Source: Eledone cirrhosa
Lineage: Eukaryota
DNA length: 64,000 bases
Assembly: GCA_964016885.1 (NCBI GenBank)
Contig: OZ024755.1
Span: 4,960,001 to 5,024,000, forward strand
Direction of reading: 5' to 3'
Shown here: in pieces, positions 24,523-57,868 of the stretch
Layout: the number at the start of each line of letters is the position of its first letter
How positions within the stretch are numbered: position 1 is the first letter of the stretch
Made by a program: the position numbers and the translations under genes
The notes under the pieces: generated by a model
What the model saw: only the letters and a program-made list of their open reading frames with translations
The model's database searches: none
Told to the model about the DNA's origin: nothing

Positions 24523-33740
<9,218 letters not shown>

Positions 33741-35616
33741 TCCTAGTACTTACAATAAAGTAGACTTAACTAAAGACAATTCAAAAACCAGACGACAGAT
33801 TAAGTCTACCACCCACATAGACTACGGTAAGATTAAACTCAGAATGCAAAGAGCTGAAACAAATATTTCAAGGCATCTCGTCCTACACTTTAACAATTCA
33901 GCCAATACGCTACTCAGAATTGTTACCTTATTAGAAAGAAGATAGTGTGTCTGTGTGAGGGAGAAAAACAGAAGAGTAATGATCTGTCTATGAAAAGAGA
34001 GGATTTTTTTCAAAAATCTCGGACGATTTAACGTATGTGCCTTAGAGCAAGGTCATTGTCGTCTGTTAAACAACGAAGACTGAACTAATGCATTATTTTC
34101 ATAATTTTTAACATTAATTACAGCTCTATTATATATAAAGTGGCTTTAATAAAGCAAAACAATGTTAAACTGGTGCAATCCAAAACTGAAGAAAGCCTGG
34201 GAAATAAAAGAGGAATTACTGTCTCTACTCAAATATAAGCCGACCCCACTATTTTATGTCCGACAAATGGGCAAAAATTCAAACTTTATTTACAGAGAAT
34301 TTGTAGTTGGTGAAAATTGTTAAAATATTGGCCCCGAATATAGGTGAACCCCCCCCTCCCCCCCTCACCATCTACCACTGACTTTTTGGTCACATATTCC
34401 TCAGCTTATATTTGAGTATATATATGGTATTATTACGAAATATATTATTTATCCTCAAGTTATAAATTAGGAAAATATTCCATTTTGGTAGTTTCAGTCG
34501 TTTGTTGAATTTATTCAATTTATTTTGTTGTTGTATATATGTAATTATTTACTGTATATATTATTTGTGTATATAAATGTATATATATATATAACTTATG
34601 AATAAAACATTTAAAATGTCATGTTGATCTTTAATAATTTGTCCTGCTTTCTTTAACACCAAAACATTGAAACAGAAATAGTCCCCATAAAATTAAAGTC
34701 TTTGGACAAACATTGCAGTTAGGTCCATTATCGTAGGACTCGTAGCAACCAAAATGCTCTGCCAACTCATGTACAACCTTGCGATGTTCTCAATTCATTG
34801 GTGAAAAGTAATGACTCCGATAGTTCTGTTTCATCTGAAGAAGACAGAAAAGGAAACCTTTGGAAGGTGTATTGAACAAAATGGGATATTTCTACATTGT
34901 AACTAGTGCCAAGTTGAATCAGCCTTTGTCTTTTGCTTGGACATCATATTGTTATACTTGGGGATGCCAGAAATAATAATAAAACACACTCACAGTTTGG
35001 TTTTCACTTCACTTAGAACAACATGACCCTCATCAAGTATAACAATATTTGTTTCAACATGATTTTATATCAAAAACCTTGCAAAACAAATATATATATA
35101 TATGTACACACCGTTACTTCACTGTGTTATAAGCTACATACAACTGACATAGAGTGCTTACACCATAGTTTATGGATTAAGATGGTACAAATAGACACAT
35201 AAATAAAGAAAGCAATATATATACATATTTGCCCATAACGCAGAAAATTCTTATATATATACCGAAACCTTTTAAGGAACTGGAAAAGGAGTTTGCTATG
35301 CTTGTGGATTTTTTGAAAGGGGAAAAAAAACAATACAATACATATGGTGATCGTCATGTGAAGGAGGAAAGATGGTAGTGTGATGGACTCCACGGACACT
35401 GATAAGGGTAGCTTGGATCAGGGTAGAAAGTTATCCCTGGTGAGTGAAAAGCCTAACCATTGTTTCAGCTACAGAGGCGGAGGAATTAAGATATGGTGGG
35501 TTTGAAGAAAACAGAGTTGGATGTTGTCGATGTAATGACTATATAGCTCAGAGGTGAATAAACTAGCAAAGATTTCAACATAGTTAACAAGTGAGTCGGG
35601 GGTGTTTCAGTGGAGG

Positions 35617-36183
35617 GCAGGGACTATAGAAGTAGAGGTAGACTAGGCAGAGAGGGAACAGCACATTCATGGGCTGGGGAGTGCCAGTGCGGAGCAGGGA
35701 CTATAGAAGTAGAGGTAGACTAGGCAGAGAGGGAACAGCACATTCATGGGCTGGGGAGTGTCAGTGCGGAGCAGGGACTATAGAAGTAGAGGTAGACTAG
35801 GCAGAGAGGGAACAGCACATTCATGGGCTGGGGAGTGCCAGTGCGGAGCAGGGACTATAGAAGTAGAGGTAGACTAGGCAGAGAGGGAACAGCACATTCA
35901 TGGGCTGGGGAGTGCCAGTGCGGAGCAGGGACTATAGAAGTAGAGGTAGACTAGGCAGAGAGGGAACAGCATATTCATGGGCTGGGGAGTGCCAGTGCGG
36001 AGTAGGGACTATAGAAGTAGAGGTAGACTAGGCAGAGAGGGAACAGCACATTCATGGGCTGGGGAGTGCCAGTGCGGAGTAGGGACTATAGAAGTAGAGG
36101 TAGACTAGGCAGAGAGGGAACAGCACATTCATGGGCTGGGGAGTGCGGAGTAGGGACTATAGAAGTAGAGGTAGACTAGGCAG
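35617..36183. repeat. 77-bp G-rich minisatellite, 7 units plus a partial
   Basis: Unit gcagggactatagaagtagaggtagactaggcagagagggaacagcacattcatgggctggggagtgccagtgcgga; starts at 35617, 35694 and so on. Confidence 0.95.
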
Positions 36184-38023
36184 GAGAAAGCATAATTGTA
36201 GATAAGAAGCTGTTGAATGTCAGCTGCCCATTTTTGCACTGTTGATAAAGCTGCAGTGCCATCCCCTAATGTAGCCACCTTGTCAGCATGAATGTCCTAG
36301 GTGCCTAAACCTTTTTTTCTACAAATACTTGATAACACCACGATGCAAAATTTTGCCCGTTTTCAAGAGAAGTCACAACTAGTTAGATTTAAAGTCTACT
36401 TTAAACAGATGTCAGTTTATTTGGAAAGAAACAATACAGTTATTAATAAAAAGAGTTGAGATTGATGCATGTAAGAGTTCACAGCTCAAGAATCAGTTTT
36501 TCATAGTCAGGGAACCTTCGTACTTCCGTTGGATCAAGCAGACGGGGGCTGGCTTCTTAAAGAAGGCCAAGCAACGATAATTACTAACATGACAATGATT
36601 TTAACGAGAATATACTACTTACTAGATATTCACACACAAGTGACATTAGAATTATATAGAAGAGCAGCCCATATATTTTAGAAATAGCAGCCAAATATTT
36701 ATCGTTCGCCACGTTTTAAAACAATGAAGGACACATTCGAAGATGTAGTTTTAGATACACATATTGGTCAATCTCATTGATTCTATATACATAAGTCGGT
36801 TTTCAGAGGACCTATTTAGGTTATGGGAACTGTTCTTTTGTTCAGATACCATTGACTTGACATGGGTCAACAACAATAGGCGAAGCGGTCCTATTTACTG
36901 CGAATCTACAAATATTATTGGAATTTTACATATTGATGATAAAACATTCTAAGCTTTTTTAAAATTAATAATTAAAAGTTTTTTACATTCTTAAATTCAA
37001 ATTTTAAACTAATTTTTCAAATAGAATTTGTCGTTTGTCTTCACTTCTTTGAAAACAAACCTCAGTGTTGCTACCACGGTTGTTATGTCTACCTCCTACT
37101 ACTCCTCTCACTCTTTATGTCTTGTCTTAGCGAAGACGACAAGTAAACAAATATGAAAATGTTATAAATAAATCGTTTTATGTCATTACAACTGGCTTTA
37201 TTTAATTTAACTTTGTCTTGTTTATAAACCCATGTATAACGTTTTTTATAATGTATAACTTTCTTTATAAACCCATGTATAACGTTTTATTAGCTTATTT
37301 CATCGTAAACATCGATTGTTTTTCTACCTTACTCGCTTACTCTTTCACTCTCTCACTCTTGTTGTTCCCCCTCTCTCTCTATAATATTTACCCCCCTTTT
37401 CTCTCTATATGTATTGCTTTTACTCTCTGTCACACACACACACACACACACACGTTGATATATAGGCATATATCAACGTATATAAACACACACATATACA
37501 CAAATATACAGACACATAAAACGTTAGAAATGGTGGCAAAATTCGCCGCAAATCACCACCTCTTGATTAGAAAATGCTAAACATAGCAACTAAACCTCCT
37601 TACGACCGTAGAACTCGCTAGAAATAGCAGCTGAAGTATTCCTCAAATTACACATCCGATGCCATGTAAAATGCTAGAAACACCAGTCAAATAACGTCTT
37701 CTAGCGACATTTCAAATAACAATGAAATTTCCTTCAAGTTATAACGGTAATGTGTTAGAAAATGCTAGAAAAAGCAGCCAAATCTACGCGTAAACATATA
37801 AACTGGTTGTGAAAATTCCCCATAAATATATATTTTAATAGCAACCAGGTAATCGTAATTTACATATTTTAATACGTATCTCTACAAAATTTCAATTAAA
37901 AACATGCAATATTAAGAAAGTTATTAAAAAAGAGAAAATAAGTGTGTTTATAGGGGGGGGGGGCAAAAATAATAATAAAAAGTTACAGTCAATGGGAAAT
38001 AACTCATAAAAAGATATTTGTAC

Positions 38024-38744
38024 GAGTTACTTGCCCTTGAATACGCTTTCACCAACCGCCCAACACGCCAGCTGGTTGTAATGGCGGCTGGCTGGCCTGT
38101 TGGGCGGTTGGCACATGGAACGTTCAACTACGCAGCCAGTACTAAAGTTCAACATGATAGCCAGTACATATACCGACCACCCTACTGGCCAGCCAGCCGT
38201 AAAGGTGGTTGGTTGGCCGGTTGGGTGGTTGGCATATGTACTGGCTATCATGTTGAACTTTAGCACTGACTGCGTAGTTGAACTTTCCCTATACCAACCG
38301 CCCAACCGGCCAGCCAACCGCCATTATGGTTGGTAGGCCGGTTGGGTGGTTGGCATATGTACTGGCTACCATGTTGAACTTTAGCACTGACTGCGTAATT
38401 GAACGTTCCATATGCCAACCGCCCAACCGGCCAGCAAACCACCATTACGGCTGGCTGGCCGGTTGGGTGGTTGGCATATGTACTGGCTATCATGTTGAAC
38501 TTTAGCACTGACTGCGTAGTTGAACGTTCCATGTGCCAACCGCCCAACCGGCCAGCCAATCGCCATTACGGCTGGTAGGCCGGTTGGGTGGTTGGTATAT
38601 GTACTGGCTACCATGTTGAACTTTAGCACTGACTGCGTAGTTGAACGTTCCATGTGCCAACCGCCCAACAGGCCAGCCAGCCGCCATTACAACCGGCTGG
38701 CCAGTGAGGCTGTTGGTGAAAGCGTTGTCAAGGGCAAGTAACTC
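38024..38744. repeat. GC-rich array of 121-bp hairpin units at the palindrome centre (also at ~48261-48981 and ~58437-59157)
   Basis: Period 121 (ORF ends 38260/38381/38502); hairpin ccaaccgcccaaccggccagccaaccg-ccatta-cggctggtaggccggttgggtggttgg alternating with a ~60-bp spacer; bounded by GAGTTACTTGCCCTTGA ... TCAAGGGCAAGTAACTC. Confidence 0.9.
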
Positions 38745-39253
38745 GATCAAATATCTTTTTATGAATTATTTCCCATTGACTGTAATATTTTTTATTATTT
38801 AATGCCCCCACCCCTTCCCCCCTTATTTTGTTTTCTTTAATAACTTTCTTAATATTGCATATTTTTAATTGAAATTTTGTAGAGATACGTATTAAAATAT
38901 GTAGATTACGATTATCTTTTTGATACTAAAATATAAATTCATGGGGAATTTTCACAACCAGTTTATATGTTTACGCGTAGATTTGGCTGCTTTTTCTAGC
39001 ATTTTCTAACACATTACCGTTATAACTTGAAGGAAATTTCGTTGTTATTTGAAATGTCGCTAGAAGACGTTATTTGACTGGTGTTTGAAGCATTTTACTT
39101 GGCATTGGATGTGTAATTTGAGGAATACTTTAGCTGCTATTTCTAGCAAGTTCTACGGTTGTAGGGAGGTTTAGCCTTTTCTAATCAAGAGGTGATGATT
39201 TGCGGGGAATTTTGCCACCATTTCTAACGTTTTATGTGTCTGTATATTTGTGT

Positions 39254-40715
39254 ATATGTGTGTGTTTATATACGTTGATATGTACCTATGTATCAACGTG
39301 TGTGTGTGTGTGTGTGTGACAGAGAGTAAAAGCAATACATATAGAGAGAAAAGGGGGGTAAATATTATAGAGAGAGAGGGGGAACAACAAGAGTGAGAGA
39401 GTGAAAGAGTAAGCGAGTAAGGTAGAAAAACAATCGATGTTTACGATGAAATAAGCTAATAAAACGTTATACATGGGTTTATAAAGAAAGTTATACATTA
39501 TAAAAAACGTTATACATGGGTTTATAAACAAGACAAAGTTAAATAAAATAAAGCCAGTTGTAAGGACATAAAACGATTTATTTATAACATTTTCATATTT
39601 GTTTACTTGTCGTCTTCGCTAAGTCAAGACATAAAGAGTGAGAGGAGTAGTAGGAGGTAGACATAACAACCGTGGTAGCAACACTGAGGTTTGTTTTCAA
39701 AGAAGTGAAGACAAACAACAAATTCTATTTGAAAAATTAGTTTAAAATTTGAATTTAAGAATGTTAAATACTTTTAATTATTAATTTTAAAAAAGCTTAG
39801 AATGTTTTATCATCAATATGTAAAATTCCAATAATATTTGTAAATTCGCAGTAAATAGGACCGCTTCGCCTATTGTTGTTTACCCATGTAAAGTCAATGG
39901 TATCTGAACAAAAGAACAGTTCCCATAACCTAAATAGGTCCTCTGAAAACCGACTTATGTATATAGAATCAATGAGATTGACCAATATGTGTGTGTTTAT
40001 ATACGTTGATATATACCTATATATCAACGTGTGTGTGTTTGCGTGTGTGACATTGAGTAAAAGCAATACATATAGGGAGAAAAGGGGGGTAAATATTATA
40101 GAGAGAGAGGGGGAACAACAAGAGTGAGAGAGTGAAAGAGTAAGCGAGTAAGGTAGAAAAACAATCGATGTTTACCATGAAATAAGCTAATAAAACGTTA
40201 TACATGGGTTTATAAAGAAAGTTATACATTATAAAAAACGTTATACATGGGTTTATAAACAAGACAAAGTTAAATTAAATAAAGCCAGTTGTAATGACAT
40301 AAAACGATTTATTTATAACATTTTCATATTTGTTTACTTGTCGTCTTCGCTAAGACAAGACATAAAGAGTGAGAGGAGTAGTAGGAGGTAGACATAACAA
40401 CCGTGGTAGCAACACTGAGGTTTGATTTCAAAGAAGTGAAGACAAACAACAAATTCTATTTGAAAAATTAGTTTAAAATTTGAATTTAAGAATGTTAAAT
40501 ACTTTTAATTATTAATTTTAAAAAAGCTTAGAATGTTTTATCATCAATATGTAAAATTCCAATAATATTTGTAGATTCGCAGTAAATAGGACCGCTTCGC
40601 CTATTGTTGTTGACCCATGTCAAAACAATTTTATCTGAACAAAAGAACAGTTCCCATAACCTAAATAGGTCCTCTGAAAACCGACTTATGTATATAGTAT
40701 CAATGAGATTGACCA
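39254..40715. repeat. 731-bp direct duplication in the right palindrome arm (units 1 and 2 only)
   Basis: Copies 39254-39984 and 39985-40715; 'atatgtgt' at 39254, 39985 and 40716. Confidence 0.9.
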
Positions 40716-41923
40716 ATATGTGTATCTAAAACTTCATCTTCGAATGTGTCCTTCATTGTTTTAAAACGTGGCGAACGATAAATATTTGGCTATTATTTCT
40801 AGCATATATGGGCTGCTCTTCTATATAATTCTAATGTCACTTGTGTGTGAATATCTAGTAAGTAGTATATTCTCGTTAAAATCATTGTCATGTTAGTAAT
40901 TATCGTTGCTTGGCCTTCTTTAAGAAGCCAGCCCCCGTCTGCTTGATCCAACGGAAGTACGAAGGTTCCCTGACTATGAAAAACTGATTCTTGAGCTGTG
41001 AACTCTTACATGCATCAATCTCAACTCTTTTTATTAATAACTGTATTGTTTCTTTCCAAATAAACTGACATCTGTTTAAAGTAGACTTCAAATCTAACTA
41101 GTTGTGACTTCTCTTGAAAACGGGCAAAATTTTGCATCGTGGTGTTATCAAGTATTTGTAGAAAAAAGGTTGCCAAGTCAATGGTATCTGGACAAAAGAA
41201 CAGTTCCCATAACCTAAATAGGTCCTCTGAAAACCGACTTTTGGGTACTATAACGCTATTAGCTGTCAGTCGAAGCAGGCGAAGGTGATGTCATTCGTCA
41301 AACATCGTTTATTTCCGTATTACTACCACGCGTAAGTGGAGTTACTTAAATTACATTTTTTTATTTTTTTATTTTTTTATTAAAGCATATAGATGTAAGT
41401 GGAGTTACTTAAATGAAAATATAGGTGGCCCTTAAAAGGGCCAAATTAGAAAACAAGTCATGGTTATCAAATAAATTGGATTTAATCATTTATATTTTCA
41501 TAGTCATGGTTATCAATGTAGAAAACAAGTCATTTTCACCAACAGTGGATAAACCCTTATTCTAGATACTATAACCCCGGAGCATCCTCCTCCCTTGCTA
41601 ATTTGATCACCTAGATATCAGAAGCTATCAACCACCTCTATAGATCCTACCAAACACTTCTATCAATTTTCCCTGAACATTTACTACATAGTTTAGTTTG
41701 TCTGCTATCCCACTGTACCCCTTGTATACCAAAGATCTGCATTGTGTACATTCTATAGAATTTATGCCAACTATATATATATAAATATATTCCTTCCATA
41801 TACTGTAACAATTGTGTTTTTTTCATGTTAGCCCTTTATGAGTTTTTTAACTAAAGTACTTGTAATTTTTATTGGAAATCCGGTGACAAAATGGTTAAAA
41901 CAAATTTCTCTTAATTGTTGCAG

Positions 41924-43718
41924 CTCTTGTAAATTATCTGAAAGTGACACATCTGAATGTTCAATTAAAGACACCTCTTAATAACAATGTTCGGGTAGCC
42001 AAAGTAGATTTACCACCTGGCAACAATGTCGTCAATCCAGAGAGTCCATTCTCCATATCTGTACCTGTTCAAGTGGCAGGTAACTGCAGTCCAATCAATT
42101 TTATTTTACTTTACCTTTCTTTTTATCTTCACCTCATTTGATACGAACCCAACTTAAACCAGCTTTGGTTCTATGAAATAAAACTACCCCAGGAACACAA
42201 TGTGCACAACCTGGTCAGGAATTGAATCCCTGACCCGTTGATTGTGAGTCAAACACCCTAACTAGTAGCTATGTACCCTTCACATCATAATGAAGGGGTT
42301 TAAAACAACAGTTTATTGGATTTATGGCAATATACTGTATTAGTCTAATAAAAAAAATGTTTATTTTATGGTTTCATTCTAAATATTTAAATTTAAGTCT
42401 TCACAGTTTCTTTCTAATGAAAATAAGAGTCACTTTTTAAAAAATATCTCATGCAATTTTCCAAAACTTAAAAGATTAAATGTTGAGTATTTTACATAAT
42501 CTTCAAAACCGTAAAAAAAAATTTGTATTTTTATATTATAAATGTAACTTTTCCTTTCTTATATAGCCAAGTCCTGAATCTAAAGTTACTGAAAATGTCA
42601 GTGTTCAAATTAACCCCCAACCTACAGATATAATTTCCTCTGAAGATGGCCCTGATACAGTGACTTCTCTTGGTATGTCTTGAAGATCATCTCAAGCAGA
42701 GACAGGTGAATTACTTGAATGACTAAAATGTTAGTAATATAACAAACTAATTAAATATATTGATTAATTGATTTACTTTGATCAGATAAAAATGTTCTGT
42801 GGCACTAAACTCAGTTTTGTGCCATTCTTCATCAATATTCTACTAGTTACCAAGCTTTATCACACATTAGACTGTGTTAGCTATCTTCATACTAATTAAC
42901 TAAAAACTATAATTACACTATTGAGAAGTTCTCTCACCTGGCATGTAGGGTCCCGTAACTCCTGAGGGAGTTGTAAGGGGCGCCATATTGACATACAGAT
43001 TTCTAGGGCATTTCTTAAACCTGGCGGAGCTCACCTCCTCCCCAGGTCTCAATACAGCAGATTTCTTCCAGAGAAGGATAGATAGCAAGTTAGAGGAAGA
43101 TATAGAGGAAGAATCGACCCCAGTACTTGACTGGTACTTTTTTTTATCAACCTTGTATGGGTGAAAGACAAAATTGAACTCGGTGGGATTTGAACTGAGA
43201 AAGTAGAAATGAATACCACAAAGCATTCTATTTGATGTGTTAACGACTCTGCCAATTCCCTTCTGTGTCATTTTAAACCATGCTAATTATGTTAATATTA
43301 TTTCTAGTATTGAGGTAGATGGAAGTTATCTTGTGTTTCTAACAGTGTTGTTACTGTTGGATGTTCTGCCTATCACTAATCTATAATCTGTACAAAAGAG
43401 TGAAGTGAATGTCTTTGTTTCCAGAACAACAGTTTTCTATTTCCTATTTATTTTATTTCAGAAAGTCCAATCTCCTTTTATTGTGATACATTTCTTCAGA
43501 TATTAAAAGAGGTGAAATGGATAAAGACAACAGAATATGAACTCAACACAGATCCAGTTGCTTTAGAAGTGGTTGCAGTAGATACTAATGGTCTTTTAAC
43601 ATTGTTAGTTAATAAGTTTATTTTAAAATTTGATTGTTTAGTGAGAGAGGGAAGTATAACAGCTTTCACCCCTTTTCAGGGACTGTGGGAGGAAGGTATC
43701 CTCAAACTGGAAACCTGA
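41924..43718 (+). pseudogene. duplicated DMTF1 3' exon fragments, copy 2 (41924-42079, 42567-42672, ~43462-43718)
   Basis: Near-identical to 30834-30989, 32589-32694 and 33484-33740 with splice sites intact; the equivalent of exon 31777-31937 is deleted; no promoter or 5' exons. Confidence 0.85.
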
Positions 43719-45614
43719 TCCTAGTACTTACAATAAAGTAGACTTAACTAAAGACAATTCAAAAACCAGGCGACAGATTAAGTCTACCACCCACATAGAC
43801 TACGGTAAGATTAAACTCAGAATGCAAAGAGCTGAAACAAATATTTCAAGGCATCTCGTCCTACACTTTAACAATTCAGCCAATACGCTACTCAGAATTG
43901 TTACCTTATTAGAAAGAAGATAGTGTGTCTGTGTGAGGGAGAAAAACAGAAGAGTAATGATCTGTCTATGAAAAGAGAGGATTTTTTTCAAAAATCTCGG
44001 ACGATTTAACGTATGTGCCTTAGAGCAAGGTCATTGTCGTCTGTTAAACAACGAAGACTGAACTAATGCATTATTTTCATAATTTTTAACATTAATTACA
44101 GCTCTATTATATATAAAGTGGCTTTAATAAAGCAAAACAATGTTAAACTGGTGCAATCCAAAACTGAAGAAAGCCTGGGAAATAAAAGAGGAATTACTGT
44201 CTCTACTCAAATATAAGCCGACCCCACTATTTTATGTCCGACAAATGGGCAAAAATTCAAACTTTATTTACAGAGAATTTGTAGTTGGTGAAAATTGTTA
44301 AAATATTGGCCCCGAATATAGGTGAAACCCCCCCCCCCCCCCCTCACCATCTACCACTGACTTTTTGGTCACATATTCCTCAGCTTATATTTGAGTATAT
44401 ATATGGTATTATTACGAAATATATTATTTATCCTCAAGTTATAAATTAGGAAAATATTCCATTTTGGTAGTTTCAGTCGTTTGTTGAATTTATTCAATTT
44501 ATTTTGTTGTTGTATATATGTAATTATTTACTGTATATATTATTTGTGTATATAAATGTATATATATATATAACTTATGAATAAAACATTTAAAATGTCA
44601 TGTTGATCTTTAATACTTGGTTGTTGATCTTTAATAATTTGTCCTGCTTTCTTTAACACCAAAACATTGAAACAGAAATAGTCCCCATAAAATTAAAGTC
44701 TTTGGACAAACATTGCAGTTAGGTCCATTATCGTAGGACTCGTAGCAACCAAAATGCTCTGCCAACTCATGTACAACCTTGCGATGTTCTCAATTCATTG
44801 GTGAAAAGTAATGACTCCGATAGTTCTGTTTCATCTAAAGAAGACAGAAAAGGAAACCTTTGGAAGGTGTATTGAACAAAATGGGATATTTCTACATTGT
44901 AACTAGTGCCAAGTTGAATCAGCCTTTGTCTTTTGCTTGGACATCATATTGTTATACTTGGGGATGCCAGAAATAATAATAAAACACACTCACAGTTTGG
45001 TTTTCACTTCACTTAGAACAACATGACCCTCATCAAGTATAACAATATTTGTTTCAACATGATTTTATATCAAAAACCTTGCAAAACAAATATATATATA
45101 TATGTACACACCGTTACTTCACTGTGTTATAAGCTACATACAACTGACATAGAGTGCTTACACCATAGTTTATGGATTAAGATGGTACAAATAGACACAT
45201 AAATAAAGAAAGCAATATATATACATATTTGCCCATAACGCAGAAAATTCATATATATACCGAAACCTTTTAAGGAACTGGAAAAGGAGTTTGCTATGCT
45301 TGTGGATTTTTTGAAAGGGGAAAAAAAACAATACAATACATATGGTGATCGTCATGTGAAGGAGGAAAGATGGTAGTGTGATGGACTCCACGGACACTGA
45401 TAAGGGTAGCTTGGATCAGGGTAGAAAGTTATCCCTGGTGAGTGAAAAGCCTAACCATTGTTTCAGCTACAGAGGCGGAGGAATTAAGATATGGTGGGTT
45501 TGAAGAAAACAGAGTTGGATGTTGTCGATGTAATGACTATATAGCTCAGAGGTGAATAAACTAGCAAAGATTTCAACATAGTTAACAAGTGAGTCGGGGG
45601 TGTTTCAGTGGAGG

Positions 45615-46412
45615 GCAGGGACTATAGAAGTAGAGGTAGACTAGGCAGAGAGGGAACAGCACATTCATGGGCTGGGGAGTGCCAGTGCGGAGTAAGAACT
45701 ATAGAAGTAGAGGTAGACTAGGCAGAGAGGGAACAGCACATTCATGGGCTGGGGAGTGCCAGTGCGGAGCAGGGACTATAGAAGTAGAGGTAGACTAGGC
45801 AGAGAGGGAACAGCACATTCATGGGCTGGGGAGTGCCAGTGCGGAGCAGGGACTATAGAAGTAGAGGTAGACTAGGCAGAGAGGGAACAGCACGTTCATG
45901 GGCTGGGGAGTGCCAGTGCGGAGCAGGGACTATAGAAGTAGAGGTAGACTAGGCAGAGAGGGAACAGCACATTCATGGGCTGGGGAGTGCCAGTGCGGAG
46001 CAGGGACTATAGAAGTAGAGGTAGACTAGGCAGAGAGGGAACAGCACATTCATGGGCTGGGGAGTGCCAGTGCGGAGCAGGGACTATAGAAGTAGAGGTA
46101 AACTAGGCAGAGAGGGAACAGCACATTCATGGGCTGGGGAGTGCCAGTGCGGAGCAGGGACTATAGAAGTAGAGGTAGACTAGGCAGAGAGGGAACAGCA
46201 TATTCATGGGCTGGGGAGTGCCAGTGCGGAGTAGGGACTATAGAAGTAGAGGTAGACTAGGCAGAGAGGGAACAGCACATTCATGGGCTGGGGAGTGCCA
46301 GTGCGGAGTAGGGACTATAGAAGTAGAGGTAGACTAGGCAGAGAGGGAACAGCACATTCATGGGCTGGGGAGTGCGGAGTAGGGACTATAGAAGTAGAGG
46401 TAGACTAGGCAG
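45615..46412. repeat. 77-bp minisatellite, 10 units plus a partial
   Basis: Offset to unit 1 grows by 231 bp (3 x 77) across the array. Confidence 0.93.
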
Positions 46413-46536
46413 GAGAAAGCATAATTGTAGATAAGAAGCTGTTGAATGTCAGCTGCCCATTTTTGCACTGTTGATAAAGCTGCAGTGCCATCCCCTAATG
46501 TAGCCACCTTGTCAGCATGAATGTCCTAGGTGCCTA

Positions 46537-47658
46537 AACCTTTTTTTCTACAAATACTTGATAACACCACGATGCAAAATTTTGCCCGTTTTCAAGAGAA
46601 GTCACAACTAGTTAGATTTAAAGTCTACTTTAAACAGATGTCAGTTTATTTGGAAAGAAACAATACAGTTATTAATAAAAAGAGTTGAGATTGATGCATG
46701 TAAGAGTTCACAGCTCAAGAATCAGTTTTTCATAGTCAGGGAACCTTCGTACTTCCGTTGGATCAAGCAGACGGGGGCTGGCTTCTTAAAGAAGGCCAAG
46801 CAACGATAATTACTAACATGACAATGATTTTAACGAGAATATACTACTTACTAGATATTCACACACAAGTGACATTAGAATTATGTAGAAGAGCAGCCCA
46901 TATATTTTAGAAATAGCAGCCAAATATTTATCGTTCGCCACGTTTTAAAACAATGAAGGACACATTCGAAGATGTAGTTTTAGATACACATATTGGTCAA
47001 TCTCATTGATTCTATATACATAAGTCGGTTTTCAGAGGACCTATTTAGGTTATGGGAACTGTTCTTTTGTTCAGATACCATTGACTTGACATGGGTCAAC
47101 AACAATAGGCGAAGCGGTCCTATTTACTGCGAATCTACAAATATTATTGGAATTTTACATATTGATGATAAAACATTCTAAGCTTTTTTAAAATTAATAA
47201 TTAAAAGTTTTTTACATTCTTAAATTCAAATTTTAAACTAATTTTTCAAATAGAATTTGTCGTTTGTCTTCACTTCTTTGAAAACAAACCTCAGTGTTGC
47301 TACCACGGTTGTTATGTCTACCTCCTACTACTCCTCTCACTCTTTATGTCTTGTCTTAGCGAAGACGACAAGTAAACAAATATGAAAATGTTATAAATAA
47401 ATCGTTTTATGTCATTACAACTGGCTTTATTTAATTTAACTTTGTCTTGTTTATAAACCCATGTATAACGTTTTTTATAATGTATAACTTTCTTTATAAA
47501 CCCATGTATAACGTTTTATTAGCTTATTTCATCGTAAACATCGATTGTTTTTCTACCTTACTCGCTTACTCTTTCACTCTCTCACTCTTGTTGTTCCCCC
47601 TCTCTCTCTATAATATTTACCCCCCTTTTCTCTCTATATGTATTGCTTTTACTCTCTG

Positions 47659-47693
<35 letters not shown>

Positions 47694-50600
47694 GATATAT
47701 AGGCATATATCAACGTATATAAACACACACATATACACAAATATACAGACACATAAAACGTTAGAAATGGTGGCAAAATTCGCCGCAAATCACCACCTCT
47801 TGATTAGAAAATGCTAAACATAGCAACTAAACCTCCTTACGACCGTAGAACTCGCTAGAAATAGCAGCTGAAGTATTCCTCAAATTACACATCCGATGCC
47901 ATGTAAAATGCTAGAAACGCCAGTCAAATAACGTCTTCTAGCGACATTTCAAATAACAATGAAATTTCCTTCAAGTTATAACGGTAATGTGTTAGAAAAT
48001 GCTAGAAAAAGCAGCCAAATCTACGCGTAAACATATAAACTGGTTGTGAAAATTCCCCATAAATATATATTTTAATAGCAACCAGGTAATCGTAATTTAC
48101 ATATTTTAATACGTATCTCTACAAAATTTCAATTAAAAACATGCAATATTAAGAAAGTTATTAAAAAAGAGAAAATAAGTGTGTTTATAGGGGGGGGGGG
48201 CAAAAATAATAATAAAAAGTTACAGTCAATGGGAAATAACTCATAAAAAGATATTTGTACGAGTTACTTGCCCTTGAATACGCTTTCACCAACCGCCCAA
48301 CACGCCAGCTGGTTGTAATGGCGGCTGGCTGGCCTGTTGGGCGGTTGGCACATGGAACGTTCAACTACGCAGCCAGTACTAAAGTTCAACATGATAGCCA
48401 GTACATATACCGACCACCCTACTGGCCAGCCAGCCGTAAAGGTGGTTGGTTGGCCGGTTGGGTGGTTGGCATATGTACTGGCTATCATGTTGAACTTTAG
48501 CACTGACTGCGTAGTTGAACTTTCCCTATACCAACCGCCCAACCGGCCAGCCAACCGCCATTATGGTTGGTAGGCCGGTTGGGTGGTTGGCATATGTACT
48601 GGCTACCATGTTGAACTTTAGCACTGACTGCGTAATTGAACGTTCCATATGCCAACCGCCCAACCGGCCAGCAAACCACCATTACGGCTGGCTGGCCGGT
48701 TGGGTGGTTGGCATATGTACTGGCTATCATGTTGAACTTTAGCACTGACTGCGTAGTTGAACGTTCCATGTGCCAACCGCCCAACCGGCCAGCCAATCGC
48801 CATTACGGCTGGTAGGCCGGTTGGGTGGTTGGTATATGTACTGGCTACCATGTTGAACTTTAGCACTGACTGCGTAGTTGAACGTTCCATGTGCCAACCG
48901 CCCAACAGGCCAGCCAGCCGCCATTACAACCGGCTGGCCAGTGAGGCTGTTGGTGAAAGCGTTGTCAAGGGCAAGTAACTCGATCAAATATCTTTTTATG
49001 AATTATTTCCCATTGACTGTAATATTTTTTATTATTTAATGCCCCCACCCCCTCCCCCCTTATTTTGTTTTCTTTAATAACTTTCTTAATATTGCATATT
49101 TTTAATTGAAATTTTGTAGAGATACGTATTAAAATATGTAGATTACGATTATCTTTTTGATACTAAAATATAAATTCATGGGGAATTTTCACAACCAGTT
49201 TATATGTTTACGCGTAGATTTGGCTGCTTTTTCTAGCATTTTCTAACACATTACCGTTATAACTTGAAGGAAATTTCGTTGTTATTTGAAATGTCGCTAG
49301 AAGACGTTATTTGACTGGTGTTGGAAGCATTTTACTTGGCATTGGATGTGTAATTTGAGGAATACTTTAGCTGCTATTTCTAGCAAGTTCTACGGTTGTA
49401 GGGAGGTTTAGCCTTTTCTAATCAAGAGGTGATGATTTGCGGGGAATTTTGCCACCATTTCTAACGTTTTATGTGTCTGTATATTTGTGTATATGTGTGT
49501 GTTTATATACGTTGATATGTACCTATGTATCAACGTGTGTGTGTGTGTGTGTGTGACAGAGAGTAAAAGCAATACATATAGAGAGAAAAGGGGGGTAAAT
49601 ATTATAGAGAGAGAGGGGGAACAACAAGAGTGAGAGAGTGAAAGAGTAAGCGAGTAAGGTAGAAAAACAATCGATGTTTACGATGAAATAAGCTAATAAA
49701 ACGTTATACATGGGTTTATAAAGAAAGTTATACATTATAAAAAACGTTATACATGGGTTTATAAACAAGACAAAGTTAAATAAAATAAAGCCAGTTGTAA
49801 TGACATAAAACGATTTATTTATAACATTTTCATATTTGTTTACTTGTCGTCTTCGCTAAGACAAGACATAAAGAGTGAGAGGAGTAGTAGGAGGTAGACA
49901 TAACAACCGTGGTAGCAACACTGAGGTTTGTTTTCAAAGAAGTGAAGACAAACAACAAATTCTATTTGAAAAATTAGTTTAAAATTTGAATTTAAGAATG
50001 TTAAATACTTTTAATTATTAATTTTAAAAAAGCTTAGAATGTTTTATCATCAATATGTAAAATTCCAATAATATTTGTAAATTCGCAGTAAATAGGACCG
50101 CTTCGCCTATTGTTGTTTACCCATGTAAAGTCAATGGTATCTGAACAAAAGAACAGTTCCCATAACCTAAATAGGTCCTCTGAAAACCGACTTATGTATA
50201 TAGAATCAATGAGATTGACCAATATGTGTGTGTTTATATACGTTGATATATACCTATATATCAACGTGTGTGTGTTTGCGTGTGTGACATTGAGTAAAAG
50301 CAATACATATAGGGAGAAAAGGGGGGTAAATATTATAGAGAGAGAGGGGGAACAACAAGAGTGAGAGAGTGAAAGAGTAAGCGAGTAAGGTAGAAAAACA
50401 ATCGATGTTTACCATGAAATAAGCTAATAAAACGTTATACATGGGTTTATAAAGAAAGTTATACATTATAAAAAACGTTATACATGGGTTTATAAACAAG
50501 ACAAAGTTAAATTAAATAAAGCCAGTTGTAATGACATAAAACGATTTATTTATAACATTTTCATATTTGTTTACTTGTCGTCTTCGCTAAGACAAGACAT

Positions 50601-51408
50601 AAAGAGTGAGAGGAGTAGTAGGAGGTAGACATAACAACCGTGGTAGCAACACTGAGGTTTGATTTCAAAGAAGTGAAGACAAACAACAAATTCTATTTGA
50701 AAAATTAGTTTAAAATTTGAATTTAAGAATGTTAAATACTTTTAATTATTAATTTTAAAAAAGCTTAGAATGTTTTATCATCAATATGTAAAATTCCAAT
50801 AATATTTGTAGATTCGCAGTAAATAGGACCGCTTCGCCTATTGTTGTTGACCCATGTCAAAACAATTTTATCTGAACAAAAGAACAGTTCCCATAACCTA
50901 AATAGGTCCTCTGAAAACCGACTTATGTATATAGTATCAATGAGATTGACCAATATGTGTATCTAAAACTGCATCTTCGAATGTGTCCTTCATTGTTTTA
51001 AAACGTGGCGAACGATAAATATTTGGCTATTATTTCTAGCATATATGGGCTGCTCTTCTATATAATTCTAATGTCACTTGTGTGTGAATATCTAGTAAGT
51101 AGTATATTCTCGTTAAAATCATTGTCATGTTAGTAATTATCGTTGCTTGGCCTTCTTTAAGAAGCCAGCCCCCGTCTGCTTGATCCAACGGAAGTACGAA
51201 GGTTCCCTGACTATGAAAAACTGATTCTTGAGCTGTGAACTCTTACATGCATCAATCTCAACTCTTTTTATTAATAACTGTATTGTTTCTTTCCAAATAA
51301 ACTGACATCTGTTTAAAGTAGACTTCAAATCTAACTAGTTGTGACTTCTCTTGAAAACGGGCAAAATTTTGCATCGTGGTGTTATCAAGTATTTGTAGAA
51401 AAAAGGTT
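46537..51408. repeat. palindrome (foldback structure), copy 2
   Basis: Same termini and internal layout as copy 1. Confidence 0.95.
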
Positions 51409-52160
51409 GCCAAGTCAATGGTATCTGGACAAAAGAACAGTTCCCATAACCTAAATAGGTCCTCTGAAAACCGACTTTTGGGTACTATAACGCTATTAGC
51501 TGTCAGTCGAAGCAGGCGAAGGTGATGTCATTCGTCAAACATCGTTTATTTCCGTATTACTACCACGCGTAAGTGGAGTTACTTAAATTACATTTTTTTA
51601 TTTTTTTATTTTTTTATTAAAGCATATAGATGTAAGTGGAGTTACTTAAATGAAAATATAGGTGGCCCTTAAAAGGGCCAAATTAGAAAACAAGTCATGG
51701 TTATCAAATAAATTGGATTTAATCATTTATATTTTCATAGTCATGGTTATCAATGTAGAAAACAAGTCATTTTCACCAACAGTGGATAAACCCTTATTCT
51801 AGATACTATAACCCCGGAGCATCCTCCTCCCTTGCTAATTTGATCACCTAGATATCAGAAGCTATCAACCACCTCTATAGATCCTACCAAACACTTCTAT
51901 CAATTTTCCCTGAACATTTACTACATAGTTTAGTTTGTCTGCTATCCCACTGTACCCCTTGTATACCAAAGATCTGCATTGTGTACATTCTATAGAATTT
52001 ATGCCAACTATATATATATAAATATATTCCTTCCATATACTGTAACAATTGTGTTTTTTTCATGTTAGCCCTTTATGAGTTTTTTAACTAAAGTACTTGT
52101 AATTTTTATTGGAAATCCGGTGACAAAATGGTTAAAACAAATTTCTCTTAATTGTTGCAG

Positions 52161-53955
52161 CTCTTGTAAATTATCTGAAAGTGACACATCTGAATGTTCA
52201 ATTAAAGACACCTCTTAATAACAATGTTCGGGTAGCCAAAGTAGATTTACCACCTGGCAACAATGTCGTCAATCCAGAGAGTCCATTCTCCATATCTGTA
52301 CCTGTTCAAGTGGCAGGTAACTGCAGTCCAATCAATTTTATTTTACTTTACCTTTCTTTTTATCTTCACCTCATTTGATACGAACCCAACTTAAACCAGC
52401 TTTGGTTCTATGAAATAAAACTACCCCAGGAACACAATGTGCACAACCTGGTCAGGAATTGAATCCCTGACCCGTTGATTGTGAGTCAAACACCCTAACT
52501 AGTAGCTATGTACCCTTCACATCATAATGAAGGGGTTTAAAACAACAGTTTATTGGATTTATGGCAATATACTGTATTAGTCTAATAAAAAAAATGTTTA
52601 TTTTATGGTTTCATTCTAAATATTTAAATTTAAGTCTTCACAGTTTCTTTCTAATGAAAATAAGAGTCACTTTTTAAAAAATATCTCATGCAATTTTCCA
52701 AAACTTAAAAGATTAAATGTTGAGTATTTTACATAATCTTCAAAACCGTAAAAAAAAATTTGTATTTTTATATTATAAATGTAACTTTTCCTTTCTTATA
52801 TAGCCAAGTCCTGAATCTAAAGTTACTGAAAATGTCAGTGTTCAAATTAACCCCCAACCTACAGATATAATTTCCTCTGAAGATGGCCCTGATACAGTGA
52901 CTTCTCTTGGTATGTCTTGAAGATCATCTCAAGCAGAGACAGGTGAATTACTTGAATGACTAAAATGTTAGTAATATAACAAACTAATTAAATATATTGA
53001 TTAATTGATTTACTTTGATCAGATAAAAATGTTCTGTGGCACTAAACTCAGTTTTGTGCCATTCTTCATCAATATTCTACTAGTTACCAAGCTTTATCAC
53101 ACATTAGACTGTGTTAGCTATCTTCATACTAATTAACTAAAAACTATAATTACACTATTGAGAAGTTCTCTCACCTGGCATGTAGGGTCCCGTAACTCCT
53201 GAGGGAGTTGTAAGGGGCGCCATATTGACATACAGATTTCTAGGGCATTTCTTAAACCTGGCGGAGCTCACCTCCTCCCCAGGTCTCAATACAGCAGATT
53301 TCTTCCAGAGAAGGATAGATAGCAAGTTAGAGGAAGATATAGAGGAAGAATCGACCCCAGTACTTGACTGGTACTTTTTTTTATCAACCTTGTATGGGTG
53401 AAAGACAAAATTGAACTCGGTGGGATTTGAACTGAGAAAGTAGAAATGAATACCACAAAGCATTCTATTTGATGTGTTAACGACTCTGCCAATTCCCTTC
53501 TGTGTCATTTTAAACCATGCTAATTATGTTAATATTATTTCTAGTATTGAGGTAGATGGAAGTTATCTTGTGTTTCTAACAGTGTTGTTACTGTTGGATG
53601 TTCTGCCTATCACTAATCTATAATCTGTACAAAAGAGTGAAGTGAATGTCTTTGTTTCCAGAACAACAGTTTTCTATTTCCTATTTATTTTATTTCAGAA
53701 AGTCCAATCTCCTTTTATTGTGATACATTTCTTCAGATATTAAAAGAGGTGAAATGGATAAAGACAACAGAATATGAACTCAACACAGATCCAGTTGCTT
53801 TAGAAGTGGTTGCAGTAGATACTAATGGTCTTTTAACATTGTTAGTTAATAAGTTTATTTTAAAATTTGATTGTTTAGTGAGAGAGGGAAGTATAACAGC
53901 TTTCACCCCTTTTCAGGGACTGTGGGAGGAAGGTATCCTCAAACTGGAAACCTGA
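52161..53955 (+). pseudogene. duplicated DMTF1 3' exon fragments, copy 3 (52161-52316, 52804-52909, ~53699-53955)
   Basis: As copy 2, offset +10237. Confidence 0.85.
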
Positions 53956-55850
53956 TCCTAGTACTTACAATAAAGTAGACTTAACTAAAGACAATTCAAA
54001 AACCAGGCGACAGATTAAGTCTACCACCCACATAGACTACGGTAAGATTAAACTCAGAATGCAAAGAGCTGAAACAAATATTTCAAGGCATCTCGTCCTA
54101 CACTTTAACAATTCAGCCAATACGCTACTCAGAATTGTTACCTTATTAGAAAGAAGATAGTGTGTCTGTGTGAGGGAGAAAAACAGAAGAGTAATGATCT
54201 GTCTATGAAAAGAGAGGATTTTTTTCAAAAATCTCGGACGATTTAACGTATGTGCCTTAGAGCAAGGTCATTGTCGTCTGTTAAACAACGAAGACTGAAC
54301 TAATGCATTATTTTCATAATTTTTAACATTAATTACAGCTCTATTATATATAAAGTGGCTTTAATAAAGCAAAACAATGTTAAACTGGTGCAATCCAAAA
54401 CTGAAGAAAGCCTGGGAAATAAAAGAGGAATTACTGTCTCTACTCAAATATAAGCCGACCCCACTATTTTATGTCCGACAAATGGGCAAAAATTCAAACT
54501 TTATTTACAGAGAATTTGTAGTTGGTGAAAATTGTTAAAATATTGGCCCCGAATATAGGTGAAACCCCCCCCCCCCCCCTCACCATCTACCACTGACTTT
54601 TTGGTCACATATTCCTCAGCTTATATTTGAGTATATATATGGTATTATTACGAAATATATTATTTATCCTCAAGTTATAAATTAGGAAAATATTCCATTT
54701 TGGTAGTTTCAGTCGTTTGTTGAATTTATTCAATTTATTTTGTTGTTGTATATATGTAATTATTTACTGTATATATTATTTGTGTATATAAATGTATATA
54801 TATATATAACTTATGAATAAAACATTTAAAATGTCATGTTGATCTTTAATACTTGGTTGTTGATCTTTAATAATTTGTCCTGCTTTCTTTAACACCAAAA
54901 CATTGAAACAGAAATAGTCCCCATAAAATTAAAGTCTTTGGACAAACATTGCAGTTAGGTCCATTATCGTAGGACTCGTAGCAACCAAAATGCTCTGCCA
55001 ACTCATGTACAACCTTGCGATGTTCTCAATTCATTGGTGAAAAGTAATGACTCCGATAGTTCTGTTTCATCTGAAGAAGACAGAAAAGGAAACCTTTGGA
55101 AGGTGTATTGAACAAAATGGGATATTTCTACATTGTAACTAGTGCCAAGTTGAATCAGCCTTTGTCTTTTGCTTGGACATCATATTGTTATACTTGGGGA
55201 TGCCAGAAATAATAATAAAACACACTCACAGTTTGGTTTTCACTTCACTTAGAACAACATGACCCTCATCAAGTATAACAATATTTGTTTCAACATGATT
55301 TTATATCAAAAACCTTGCAAAACAAATATATATATATATGTACACACCGTTACTTCACTGTGTTATAAGCTACATACAACTGACATAGAGTGCTTACACC
55401 ATAGTTTATGGATTAAGATGGTACAAATAGACACATAAATAAAGAAAGCAATATATATACATATTTGCCCATAACGCAGAAAATTCATATATATACCGAA
55501 ACCTTTTAAGGAACTGGAAAAGGAGTTTGCTATGCTTGTGGATTTTTTGAAAGGGGAAAAAAAACAATACAATACATATGGTGATCGTCATGTGAAGGAG
55601 GAAAGATGGTAGTGTGATGGACTCCACGGACACTGATAAGGGTAGCTTGGATCAGGGTAGAAAGTTATCCCTGGTGAGTGAAAAGCCTAACCATTGTTTC
55701 AGCTACAGAGGCGGAGGAATTAAGATATGGTGGGTTTGAAGAAAACAGAGTTGGATGTTGTCGATGTAATGACTATATAGCTCAGAGGTGAATAAACTAG
55801 CAAAGATTTCAACATAGTTAACAAGTGAGTCGGGGGTGTTTCAGTGGAGG

Positions 55851-56571
55851 GCAGGGACTATAGAAGTAGAGGTAGACTAGGCAGAGAGGGAACAGCACGT
55901 TCATGGGCTGGGGAGTGCCAGTGCGGAGCAGGGACTATAGAAGTAGAGGTAGACTAGGCAGAGAGGGAACAGCACATTCATGGGCTGGGGAGTGCCAGTG
56001 CGGAGCAGGGACTATAGAAGTAGAGGTAGACTAGGCAGAGAGGGAACAGCACGTTCATGGGCTGGGGAGTGCCAGTGCGGAGCAGGGACTATAGAAGTAG
56101 AGGTAGACTAGGCAGAGAGGGAACAGCACATTCATGGGCTGGGGAGTGTCAGTGCGGAGCAGGGACTATAGAAGTAGAGGTAGACTAGGCAGAGAGGGAA
56201 CAGCACATTCATGGGCTGGGGAGTGCCAGTGCGGAGCAGGGACTATAGAAGTAGAGGTAGACTAGGCAGAGAGGGAACAGCACATTCATGGGCTGGGGAG
56301 TGCCAGTGCGGAGCAGGGACTATAGAAGTAGAGGTAGACTAGGCAGAGAGGGAACAGCATATTCATGGGCTGGGGAGTGCCAGTGCGGAGTAGGGACTAT
56401 AGAAGTAGAGGTAGACTAGGCAGAGAGGGAACAGCACATTCATGGGCTGGGGAGTGCCAGTGCGGAGTAGGGACTATAGAAGTAGAGGTAGACTAGGCAG
56501 AGAGGGAACAGCACATTCATGGGCTGGGGAGTGCGGAGTAGGGACTATAGAAGTAGAGGTAGACTAGGCAG
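55851..56571. repeat. 77-bp minisatellite, 9 units plus a partial
   Basis: Offset to unit 2 shrinks by 77 bp across the array. Confidence 0.93.
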
Positions 56572-56695
56572 GAGAAAGCATAATTGTAGATAAGAAGCTG
56601 TTGAATGTCAGCTGCCCATTTTTGCACTGTTGATAAAGCTGCAGTGCCATCCCCTAATGTAGCCACCTTGTCAGCATGAATGTCCTAGGTGCCTA

Positions 56696-57817: not shown

Positions 57818-57868
<51 letters not shown>

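What the first reader, a model, noticed from the sequence alone, without database searches (positions are those of the whole stretch)
36308..41171. Multi-kb non-coding palindrome folded around a hairpin array, present three times between convergent gene ends
Seen: the ~1.9-kb left arm (36308 to ~38200) is reverse-complemented by the right arm (to 41171), which carries three extra 121-bp units and a 731-bp duplication. There is no unique spacer, because the axis is itself a hairpin. I see no transposase ORF and no clear TSD (gtgccta|AACC ... GGTT|gccaag). The arms differ by scattered substitutions and small indels, so this is not a simple read fold-back artefact. Established: spacerless palindromes this long are unstable (cruciform extrusion, hairpin-capped breaks) and promote amplification; long hairpin RNAs feed Dicer/endo-siRNA pathways and ADAR, and A-to-I editing is exceptionally extensive in coleoid cephalopods. 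Inference: this is either an undescribed foldback-type mobile element or an inverted duplication seeded by the central hairpin. Sitting ~1.7 kb past the likely DMTF1 poly(A) region (AATAAA at 34601), read-through could yield a ~1.9-kb dsRNA stem.
Basis: partly seen in the sequence, partly recalled or inferred. Interest (0 to 1): 0.75.

Follow-up and report, generated by a model that had tools for sequence, protein, structure and literature searches.

The report
Local fold-back duplication at hairpin satellite
This 4.9-kb mirror-image stretch behind an octopus gene is real but lacks the ends of a jumping gene: it is a local duplication of old repeat DNA that likely formed when a strand folded back at a hairpin-shaped satellite unit, was likely re-copied and lengthened later, and now lies three times in a row together with the end of the gene.

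Summary
The palindrome is real, and short-read contigs carry right-arm alleles. It is not a foldback transposon. Its left end cuts through a mariner remnant inside a dispersed mosaic repeat that runs on past 36308. It has no convincing TSD, and its right junction occurs only in the three tandem copies.

The axis is the hairpin of a 121-bp satellite unit that forms a 44-kb array elsewhere on the contig. The arms show two ages: inner ~8% diverged, outer 1.3-2.7%. A 69-bp piece beyond the right end keeps an ancestral base that all three long outer copies have lost. Likely history: fold-back at the hairpin, then arm-to-arm re-copying with a 731-bp stutter, then tandem duplication of ~10 kb with DMTF1 3' exons. 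Copy 2 is a hybrid of copies 3 and 1.

The hairpin-RNA idea is untested; arm mismatches show no G-U bias. The scan earlier noted a related palindrome-prone family on other DNA (e1-9521618). This is a new member of a known kind, of modest interest.

The parts
36308..38197 (+). Left arm: the native, uninterrupted continuation of the upstream mosaic repeat (modules X and Y plus one reversed satellite unit)
38166..38240 (.). Axis: hairpin B of the 121-bp satellite unit (loop about 38198-38207)
38208..38715 (+). Four forward 121-bp units (loop part A plus hairpin B); the last unit is the closest to the left-arm unit (3 differences in 86)
38716..39253 (-). Inner right arm, 8.0% diverged from the left (43 of 538): the old stage
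39254..40723 (-). Two direct copies of a 731-bp arm segment (39254-39992, 39985-40723), joined at an ATATGTGT microhomology; 1.6% and 2.2% from the left arm, 2.7% from each other
40724..41171 (-). Outermost right arm, 1.8% from the left arm
41172..41240 (-). 69-bp piece matching 36794-36862; keeps the outgroup C where the left arm and both 731-bp copies have T; inferred tip of the older right arm
41244..41549 (+). Left half of a high-copy Merlin-like MITE (GG termini; 8-bp TSD at 7-8 of 8 in 4 of 9 distinct two-ended copies checked)
36220..36510 (-). 5' remnant of a dispersed mariner element (transposase N-terminus broken by stops and a frameshift), cut by the palindrome's left end
34709..36854 (+). 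Module X: mosaic repeat shared at 71-88% with dispersed copies on C22, C23 and C25; includes the 77-bp VNTR at 35617-36183
36845..38050 (+). Module Y: dispersed old repeat (68-87% to copies on C15, C11, C12, C22, C23, C28); also precedes the 44-kb satellite array at C15:7.44 Mb
30720..41810 (+). Tandem copy 1 (original DMTF1 3' exons plus the palindrome)
41811..52047 (+). Tandem copy 2 (palindrome 46537-51408); like copy 3 in its 5' part and like copy 1 in its 3' part; lacks the 1119-bp stretch with the exon at 31779-31937
52048..61540 (+). Tandem copy 3 (palindrome 56696-60853, without the 731-bp duplication)
24523..32696 (+). DMTF1 coding exons (the Myb exon 29251-29409 is 100% identical to Octopus DMTF1 proteins)
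61832..62815 (-). 3' exons of a FAM69/DIPK-family kinase gene (Pfam PIP49_C), convergent with DMTF1

Best explanation
The palindrome is a locus-specific inverted duplication of old repeat DNA, centred on the hairpin of a 121-bp satellite unit, that likely arose by fold-back priming at that hairpin and was likely re-copied and lengthened later by template switching between its arms. Stage 1 (inferred; arms now ~8% apart): a broken or stalled strand folded back at hairpin B and copied the left flank in reverse, at least as far as 36794. A Merlin-like MITE half now abuts that old end. Stage 2 (inferred; 1.3-2.7%): the outer right arm was rebuilt from the left arm, starting at the (CA)n tract near 37430-37455. 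The copying slipped back once (the 731-bp duplication, 8-bp microhomology), ran on to 36308, and rejoined the old arm, leaving its 69-bp tip behind. Stage 3 (shown by alignment; ~0.3%): a ~10-kb block with DMTF1 3' exons was duplicated in tandem at a TGTT microhomology, and the duplicate lost one exon. Stage 4 (inferred): unequal crossover between 39624 and 39901 made the hybrid copy 2, and copy 3 lost the 731-bp repeat. No function is implied. The inner mismatches and the 363-bp offset would blunt cruciform formation and likely let it persist.
For: The ends are not element ends: homology to dispersed copies crosses 36308 in 8 of 9 non-C15 regions compared and the end lies inside a mariner remnant. 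The right junction occurs 3 times in 3.0 Gb, all in this cluster. No match outside the window spans the X-Y join (40 of 50 candidates scored). The axis is an ordinary satellite hairpin: 361 reversed units plus 1 forward at C15:7443652-7487889. That array also flips at hairpin B at its right end, followed by an 83-bp inverted match (97.6%) to its own left flank. The two inner arms are closer to each other (8.0%) than to the nearest paralogue (10.6-11.7%). Three long outer copies are about equidistant (1.4-2.7%), as a single multi-switch event would give. The 69-bp piece has the outgroup allele. Substitutions single out copy 1 up to 38815 and copy 3 from 40734 on. Short-read contigs carry right-arm alleles (36677, 36678, 36984, 37032) and the copy-2/3 deletion joint. 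Fold-back priming near natural inverted repeats is documented in yeast (PMC10622511, abstract; PMC7999016, passages).
Against: The 'fossil tip' rests on one informative base. There is no forward third copy, which the ODIRA inverted-triplication model would predict (PMC10766186, section 5 part 1). Higher identity in the outer arms could also come from gradual gene conversion rather than one re-copying event. The second flip at hairpin B (C15:7487889) could be an unrelated Penelope-like insertion, since the rest of that flank matches at only 84%. No listed contig or read spans the palindrome. Contig depths in the repeated block are only about 2-2.5 times single-copy depth, so the third copy may be haplotype-specific or over-assembled; these depths are not true copy numbers. 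Genome searches scored only ~40 candidates each.
Confidence: 0.7

Rival explanations
1. An undescribed foldback (TIR) transposon with 1.9-kb arms and internal tandem repeats.
For: The architecture of long arms around tandem repeats without an ORF resembles Tetris and Galileo (PMC4079207, PMC3573991, passages). Arm sequence occurs as inverted pairs elsewhere. GCCTA/GCCAA matches 4 of 5.
Against: The left end is internal to a mariner remnant and to module X. The right junction is confined to this cluster. The 7 C23 inverted pairs examined have 7 different outer ends, different centres and no exact TSD (one end abuts an assembly gap).
Confidence: 0.05
2. Stage 1 was a retro-insertion whose cDNA snapped back at hairpin B, as in Penelope-type inverted inserts, rather than a chromosomal fold-back.
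For: Module Y homologues start next to (TA)n tracts in 6 of 7 loci shown. Penelope-like pieces flank the C15 satellite array (family recalled, no Pfam hit). The A-B-A piece rides in ~5.9-kb tandem units that carry an RT remnant.
Against: No hammerhead-like core was found in 34601-38720 on either strand. The old right arm includes inverted module-X sequence from beyond Y's end, which points to a genomic template. There is no tail or TSD.
Confidence: 0.1
3. The inner palindrome was made by bringing two separate Y-plus-satellite copies head to head (ectopic recombination at the self-complementary hairpin), and only the outer arms were copied locally.
For: The inner arms are 8% apart, not far below the 10.6-12.2% to the C15 paralogues. 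The first right unit shares variants with the big array.
Against: No paralogue closer to either arm was among the 40 of 205 candidates scored. The terminal units mirror each other best (3 differences in 86).
Confidence: 0.08
4. The structure is kept because DMTF1 or DIPK read-through makes a long hairpin RNA for ADAR or Dicer (not exclusive of the origin above).
For: It lies between convergent gene ends, 1.7 kb past an AATAAA and ~1 kb past the DIPK-like 3' end. Outer arms of 98-99% identity would pair if transcribed.
Against: Of 51 arm mismatches, 12 keep a G-U pair on the + transcript, 12 break it and 27 are transversions, so there is no sign of selection on a stem. The arms are decayed repeats. 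Rfam gave only sub-threshold miRNA-like hits in the units.
Confidence: 0.05
5. The palindrome is an assembly or read fold-back artefact.
For: No listed record spans it. Some C23 palindromes are 99.9-100% identical and one abuts a gap. Adapter-centred artefacts were noted elsewhere in this genome (e1-9538151).
Against: The arms differ by 1.3-8% with indels, the axis is a satellite unit, and right-arm alleles appear in short-read contigs whose outer-arm depth (31-43) is about twice that of the repeated block (16-22). Those runs are one sample, possibly the assembly's own.
Confidence: 0.02

Closest known systems
Foldback inversions primed at short inverted repeats (yeast; PMC10622511 abstract, PMC7999016 passages)
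   Same: A short natural inverted repeat sits at the axis of a much longer inverted duplication of the adjacent flank.
   Different: Here it is interstitial, only ~2 kb, old and fixed in a germline assembly, with a second round of re-copying; no dicentric or telomere-capture step is visible.
ODIRA and DUP-TRP/INV-DUP inverted CNVs (PMC10766186, abstract and section 5 part 1 of 2)
   Same: One palindromic junction at an inverted repeat, other junctions with little or no microhomology, and later erosion of the palindrome.
   Different: No forward third copy or second fold-back junction remains; the scale is kb rather than tens to thousands of kb.
Foldback transposons Tetris and Galileo (PMC4079207, PMC3573991; passages)
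   Same: Long inverted arms, internal tandem repeats that also form a satellite array, no ORF; Galileo TIRs are proposed to lengthen by arm-to-arm repair.
   Different: No shared termini among copies and no TSD; here the arms extend outward into flanking DNA, whereas Galileo recruits internal sequence.
Satellite macro-dyad symmetries of Tribolium (PMC13081366; abstract and passages)
   Same: A satellite whose unit is itself a dyad, with array orientation flipping at a defined site.
   Different: Only five units at this locus, most of the arm is non-satellite flank, and there is no evidence for a centromeric setting.

Membership tests
Foldback-type TIR transposon | Long inverted arms, often with internal tandem repeats | tested here: met
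Foldback-type TIR transposon | Target-site duplication at the ends (7 bp for Galileo, 8-10 bp for Tetris) | tested here: not met
   no exact match at lengths 2-12; best 4 of 5
Foldback-type TIR transposon | Dispersed copies sharing the same termini | tested here: not met
Foldback-type TIR transposon | Autonomous partner with the same ends | not tested
   No termini to search with; the only transposase trace is an unrelated mariner remnant
Inverted-repeat-seeded foldback inversion | Pre-existing short inverted repeat at the axis | tested here: met
   Hairpin B exists in 362 array units and in dispersed copies elsewhere
Inverted-repeat-seeded foldback inversion | One arm continuous with its flank, the other ending at a novel, locus-specific junction | tested here: met
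Inverted-repeat-seeded foldback inversion | Initiating break or stalled fork and the enzymes involved | not testable with these tools
   Inferred only
ODIRA inverted triplication | Two fold-back junctions and three copies with the middle one inverted | tested here: not met
   after the inverted arm come 69 bp in the same inverted orientation, then a MITE half
Penelope/retrozyme inverted insert | Hammerhead ribozyme motif in the repeat | tested here: not met
   (recalled core patterns) and Rfam
Penelope/retrozyme inverted insert | Insertion in a microsatellite with a tail | tested here: inconclusive
   Y homologues start at (TA)n tracts, but the window copy starts at module X
Endo-siRNA or ADAR hairpin RNA locus | Transcription across both arms, ~21-nt reads or A-to-G clusters | not testable with these tools
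Merlin non-autonomous element (flanking MITE only) | Terminal GG and 8-9-bp TSD (PMC8101967, passage) | tested here: met
   17 loci, 11 with both ends (9 distinct elements), 4 of those 9 with 7-8 of 8 TSD matches; the window holds only the left half; no transposase tested

The most novel reading that the evidence does not exclude
The 121-bp hairpin satellite, like the ~500-bp inverted core of the related C23 repeat family, is a recurrent fold-back switch in the octopus germline. Palindromes nucleate on it and then grow outward by repeated arm-to-arm copying, leaving datable layers and fossil tips. This would make octopus a natural record of palindrome growth and extend satellite macro-dyad symmetry beyond Tribolium.
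Probability: 0.25. Interest if true: 0.55.

Novelty: new member of a known kind. Interest (0 to 1): 0.27.

Why it matters
It removes a candidate new transposon and shows how such look-alikes arise without a transposase. The locus preserves an unusually readable, layered history of fold-back, re-copying, tandem duplication and unequal crossover, and it has multiplied DMTF1's 3' exons. If hairpin-seeded palindrome growth proves recurrent across this genome, it would give a germline system for measuring how long palindromes form, lengthen and become stable in an animal.

Tried and rejected
TIR/TSD search at both candidate right ends: no exact TSD. Rfam on 30000-43000: only sub-threshold miRNA-like hits, plus a Histone3 stem-loop at the gathering score (41403-41447) that lies inside the high-copy MITE arm, read as incidental. 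ARAGORN on 16 related loci: 0 tRNAs. Hammerhead scans: none in the arms or units. I first took the fold-back arrays beside Y homologues on C11, C12 and C23 as signs of a Y-driven mechanism. I dropped this because those arrays have unrelated units and the two scanned (C12 and C23:12.3 Mb) carry hammerhead-like cores, so they look like separate retrozyme or Penelope inserts. A giant common foldback element for the C23 palindromes was rejected because all 7 outer ends differ; these 7 were picked because they showed inverted hits, so they do not give a frequency. No open frame of a host gene was evident in the C23 arms, only LINE remnants. Sequencing runs: no RNA holder listed. The RAD-seq run X4 barely covers the arms. 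Pfam did not confirm the Penelope-like or CRE-like labels (RVT_1 at E 0.025 only), so these labels are recalled. Paper searches with octopus or cephalopod plus palindrome terms listed no paper on cephalopod palindromes; most subscription journals, Repbase and Dfam were not searchable, and no supplements were read. Look-ups of earlier findings near this place and by sequence were empty.
Full report
Observation. The window is G000:C15:4960001-5024000 in a 3.0-Gb genome. A DMTF1 exon at 29251-29409 is 100% identical to Octopus proteins, so the organism is an octopus or close relative. Self-comparison confirms the palindrome: left arm 36308-38197, right arm 38208-41171, with four forward 121-bp units against one reversed unit and a 731-bp direct duplication on the right. 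The axis is a hairpin with an 8-10-nt loop. The structure occurs three times because a ~10-kb block (30720-61540) is triplicated in tandem at 99.1-99.6% identity. The block holds DMTF1 3' exons; copies 2 and 3 lack the exon at 31779-31937. A FAM69/DIPK-family gene ends on the minus strand at about 61832. Copy 3 has no 731-bp duplication.

Is it real? Contigs of three runs from one sample (library not on record, possibly the assembly's own sample) carry right-arm alleles at 36677, 36678, 36984 and 37032 (against the arm differences). They also carry the joint 31420-32540 with its 8-base filler, found only in copies 2 and 3. Contig depth is 5-12 in unique DMTF1 sequence, 16-22 in the repeated block and 31-43 in the outer arms. 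The tool warns that such depths are not copy numbers. Read loosely they fit two arms per unit and about two units per haplotype on average, so the third copy may be haplotype-specific or over-assembled. No listed record spans the palindrome.

The ends are not transposon ends. The first 550 bp of the arm match dozens of places on C22, C23 and C25 at 75-81% (40 of 2247 candidates scored). That homology runs on through 36308 into the upstream flank in 8 of 9 non-C15 regions compared, back to 34709. Position 36308 lies inside the 5' remnant of a dispersed mariner element (36220-36510); a longer copy of that element hits Pfam Transposase_1. No exact TSD exists at either candidate right end; the best is 4 of 5. 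A 37-base pattern across the right junction matches 3 places in the genome with up to 2 mismatches, all in this cluster. No outside match spans the join between the two modules of the arm, X (34709-36854) and Y (36845-38050). Foldback transposons such as Tetris and Galileo are recognised by shared termini and TSDs (PMC4079207, PMC3573991; passages), so this is not a member.

The axis is a satellite hairpin. The 121-bp unit is a ~72-bp hairpin (B) plus a ~49-bp part (A). It forms an array of 361 reversed units and 1 forward unit at C15:7443652-7487889, preceded and once interrupted by homologues of the inner arm at 87-89%. At the array's right end the orientation flips at hairpin B, followed by an 83-bp inverted match (97.6%) to the array's own left flank; the rest of that flank matches at only 84%, so this second flip is suggestive only. 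A 177-bp A-B-A piece is listed at 35 further places, many near contig ends, inside ~5.9-kb tandem units with an RT remnant.

The arms have two ages. The inner arms differ at 43 of 538 bases (8.0%) and are each 10.6-12.2% from the C15 paralogues. The outer copies differ by 1.3-2.7%, and the left arm and the two 731-bp copies are about equidistant. The step lies at the (CA)n tract near 37430-37455. The 731-bp joint has an ATATGTGT microhomology. Beyond the right end lie 69 bp matching 36794-36862. At one site this piece has the C of two outgroup loci, while the left arm and both 731-bp copies have T. I read it as the tip of an older, shorter right arm; this rests on one base. It is followed by the left half of an abundant MITE with GG ends and 8-bp TSDs in 4 of 9 distinct two-ended copies, which fits Merlin's features (PMC8101967, passage).

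Mechanism. Shown: the anatomy, the junctions, the two divergence layers and the copy relationships. Inferred: stage 1, fold-back priming at hairpin B copying the left flank in reverse, as shown experimentally for breaks near natural inverted repeats in yeast (PMC10622511, abstract; PMC7999016, passages). Stage 2, a later repair of the right arm from the left arm, with one slip back and overshoot to 36308. Stage 3, tandem duplication at a TGTT microhomology, ~0.3% old. Stage 4, unequal crossover: substitutions single out copy 1 up to 38815 and copy 3 from 40734 on, with copy 2 matching copy 3 through 39624 and copy 1 from 39901. An assembler's extra pass through a duplication could mimic stage 4, though copy 2 has 4 private substitutions and its own 77-bp VNTR count. 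Copy 3's single 731-bp segment matches the inner copy (0.1-0.4%) but has the outer allele at its far end, consistent with loss by recombination. There is no forward third copy, so a clean ODIRA triplication (PMC10766186, section 5 part 1) is not met. Mismatched, offset centres lower palindrome fragility (PMC7999016, passage), which would explain persistence.

The RNA idea. It could not be tested. Of 51 arm mismatches, 12 would keep a G-U pair on the DMTF1 strand, 12 would break it and 27 are transversions, so nothing suggests selection on a stem. Rfam gave no family at threshold inside the palindrome, and no hammerhead core was found there.

Context. Copies of module X on C23 sit in larger palindromes. 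In 7 of 7 regions picked for inverted hits, arms run 1.5-21 kb at about 92-100%; they are centred on a conserved ~450-650-bp inverted core beside 88-bp arrays, and all outer ends differ. An earlier unchecked note reached a similar reading for what appears to be this family (e1-9521618); my tests agree for the regions I examined. A paper on Tribolium says satellite macro-dyad symmetries were documented only in that genus (PMC13081366, passage). Searches listed no paper on cephalopod palindromes, but the library is partial.

Verdict. This is a new instance of a known rearrangement type with an unusually legible history. Interest 0.27.

Noticed in passing
G000:C23 regions A-G (L031-L044, L161-L180): A family of large palindromes (arms 1.5-21 kb, about 92-100%) centred on a conserved ~450-650-bp inverted core, with 88-bp arrays that flip orientation there; outer ends all differ and one abuts an assembly gap.
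   Followed up: partly
G000:C15:7443652-7487889 (L149-L153, L244): A 44-kb array of the 121-bp hairpin satellite (361 reversed units plus 1 forward), flanked by Penelope-like RT/endonuclease remnants (family recalled).
   Followed up: partly
L074:1501-1677 and 34 other listed places (C1-C21, many near contig ends): A 177-bp A-B-A piece of the satellite sits downstream of the ORF remnants in ~5.9-kb tandem non-LTR retroelement units whose C-terminal motif resembles a CRE-type restriction-like endonuclease (recalled; no Pfam hit).
   Followed up: partly
window:41811-52047 and 52048-61540: Duplicated DMTF1 3' exons (aa ~422-477 and ~543-577) without the middle exon; the deletion joint is present in short-read contigs. 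They could supply alternative 3' ends.
   Followed up: partly
window:41244-41549; L184-L200: An abundant Merlin-like MITE of ~0.8-1.1 kb whose arm contains a stem-loop scoring at Rfam's Histone3 gathering threshold (41403-41447, minus strand).
   Followed up: partly
L154:2015-4381 (C11) and L155:7613-8916 (C12): Arrays of a ~422-bp unit that fold back head to head; the C12 units carry a hammerhead-like core, retrozyme-like.
   Followed up: no
L157-L158 (C28:125956001-125976000): Tandem 1584-bp units, each with a ~1.07-kb palindrome, interleaved with module-Y homologues.
   Followed up: no
window:35617-36183, 45615-46412, 55851-56571: A 77-bp VNTR with 7.4, 10.4 and 9.4 units in the three copies; relatives elsewhere have fewer, more diverged units.
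   Followed up: no
window:771-16894: Exons of a further gene on the + strand upstream of DMTF1; the translations look like an F-BAR/RhoGAP (srGAP-like) protein (recalled, not tested).
   Followed up: no
window:63342-64000: A 60-bp tandem repeat (10.9 copies within the window, 97%) in an intron of the DIPK-like gene.
   Followed up: no
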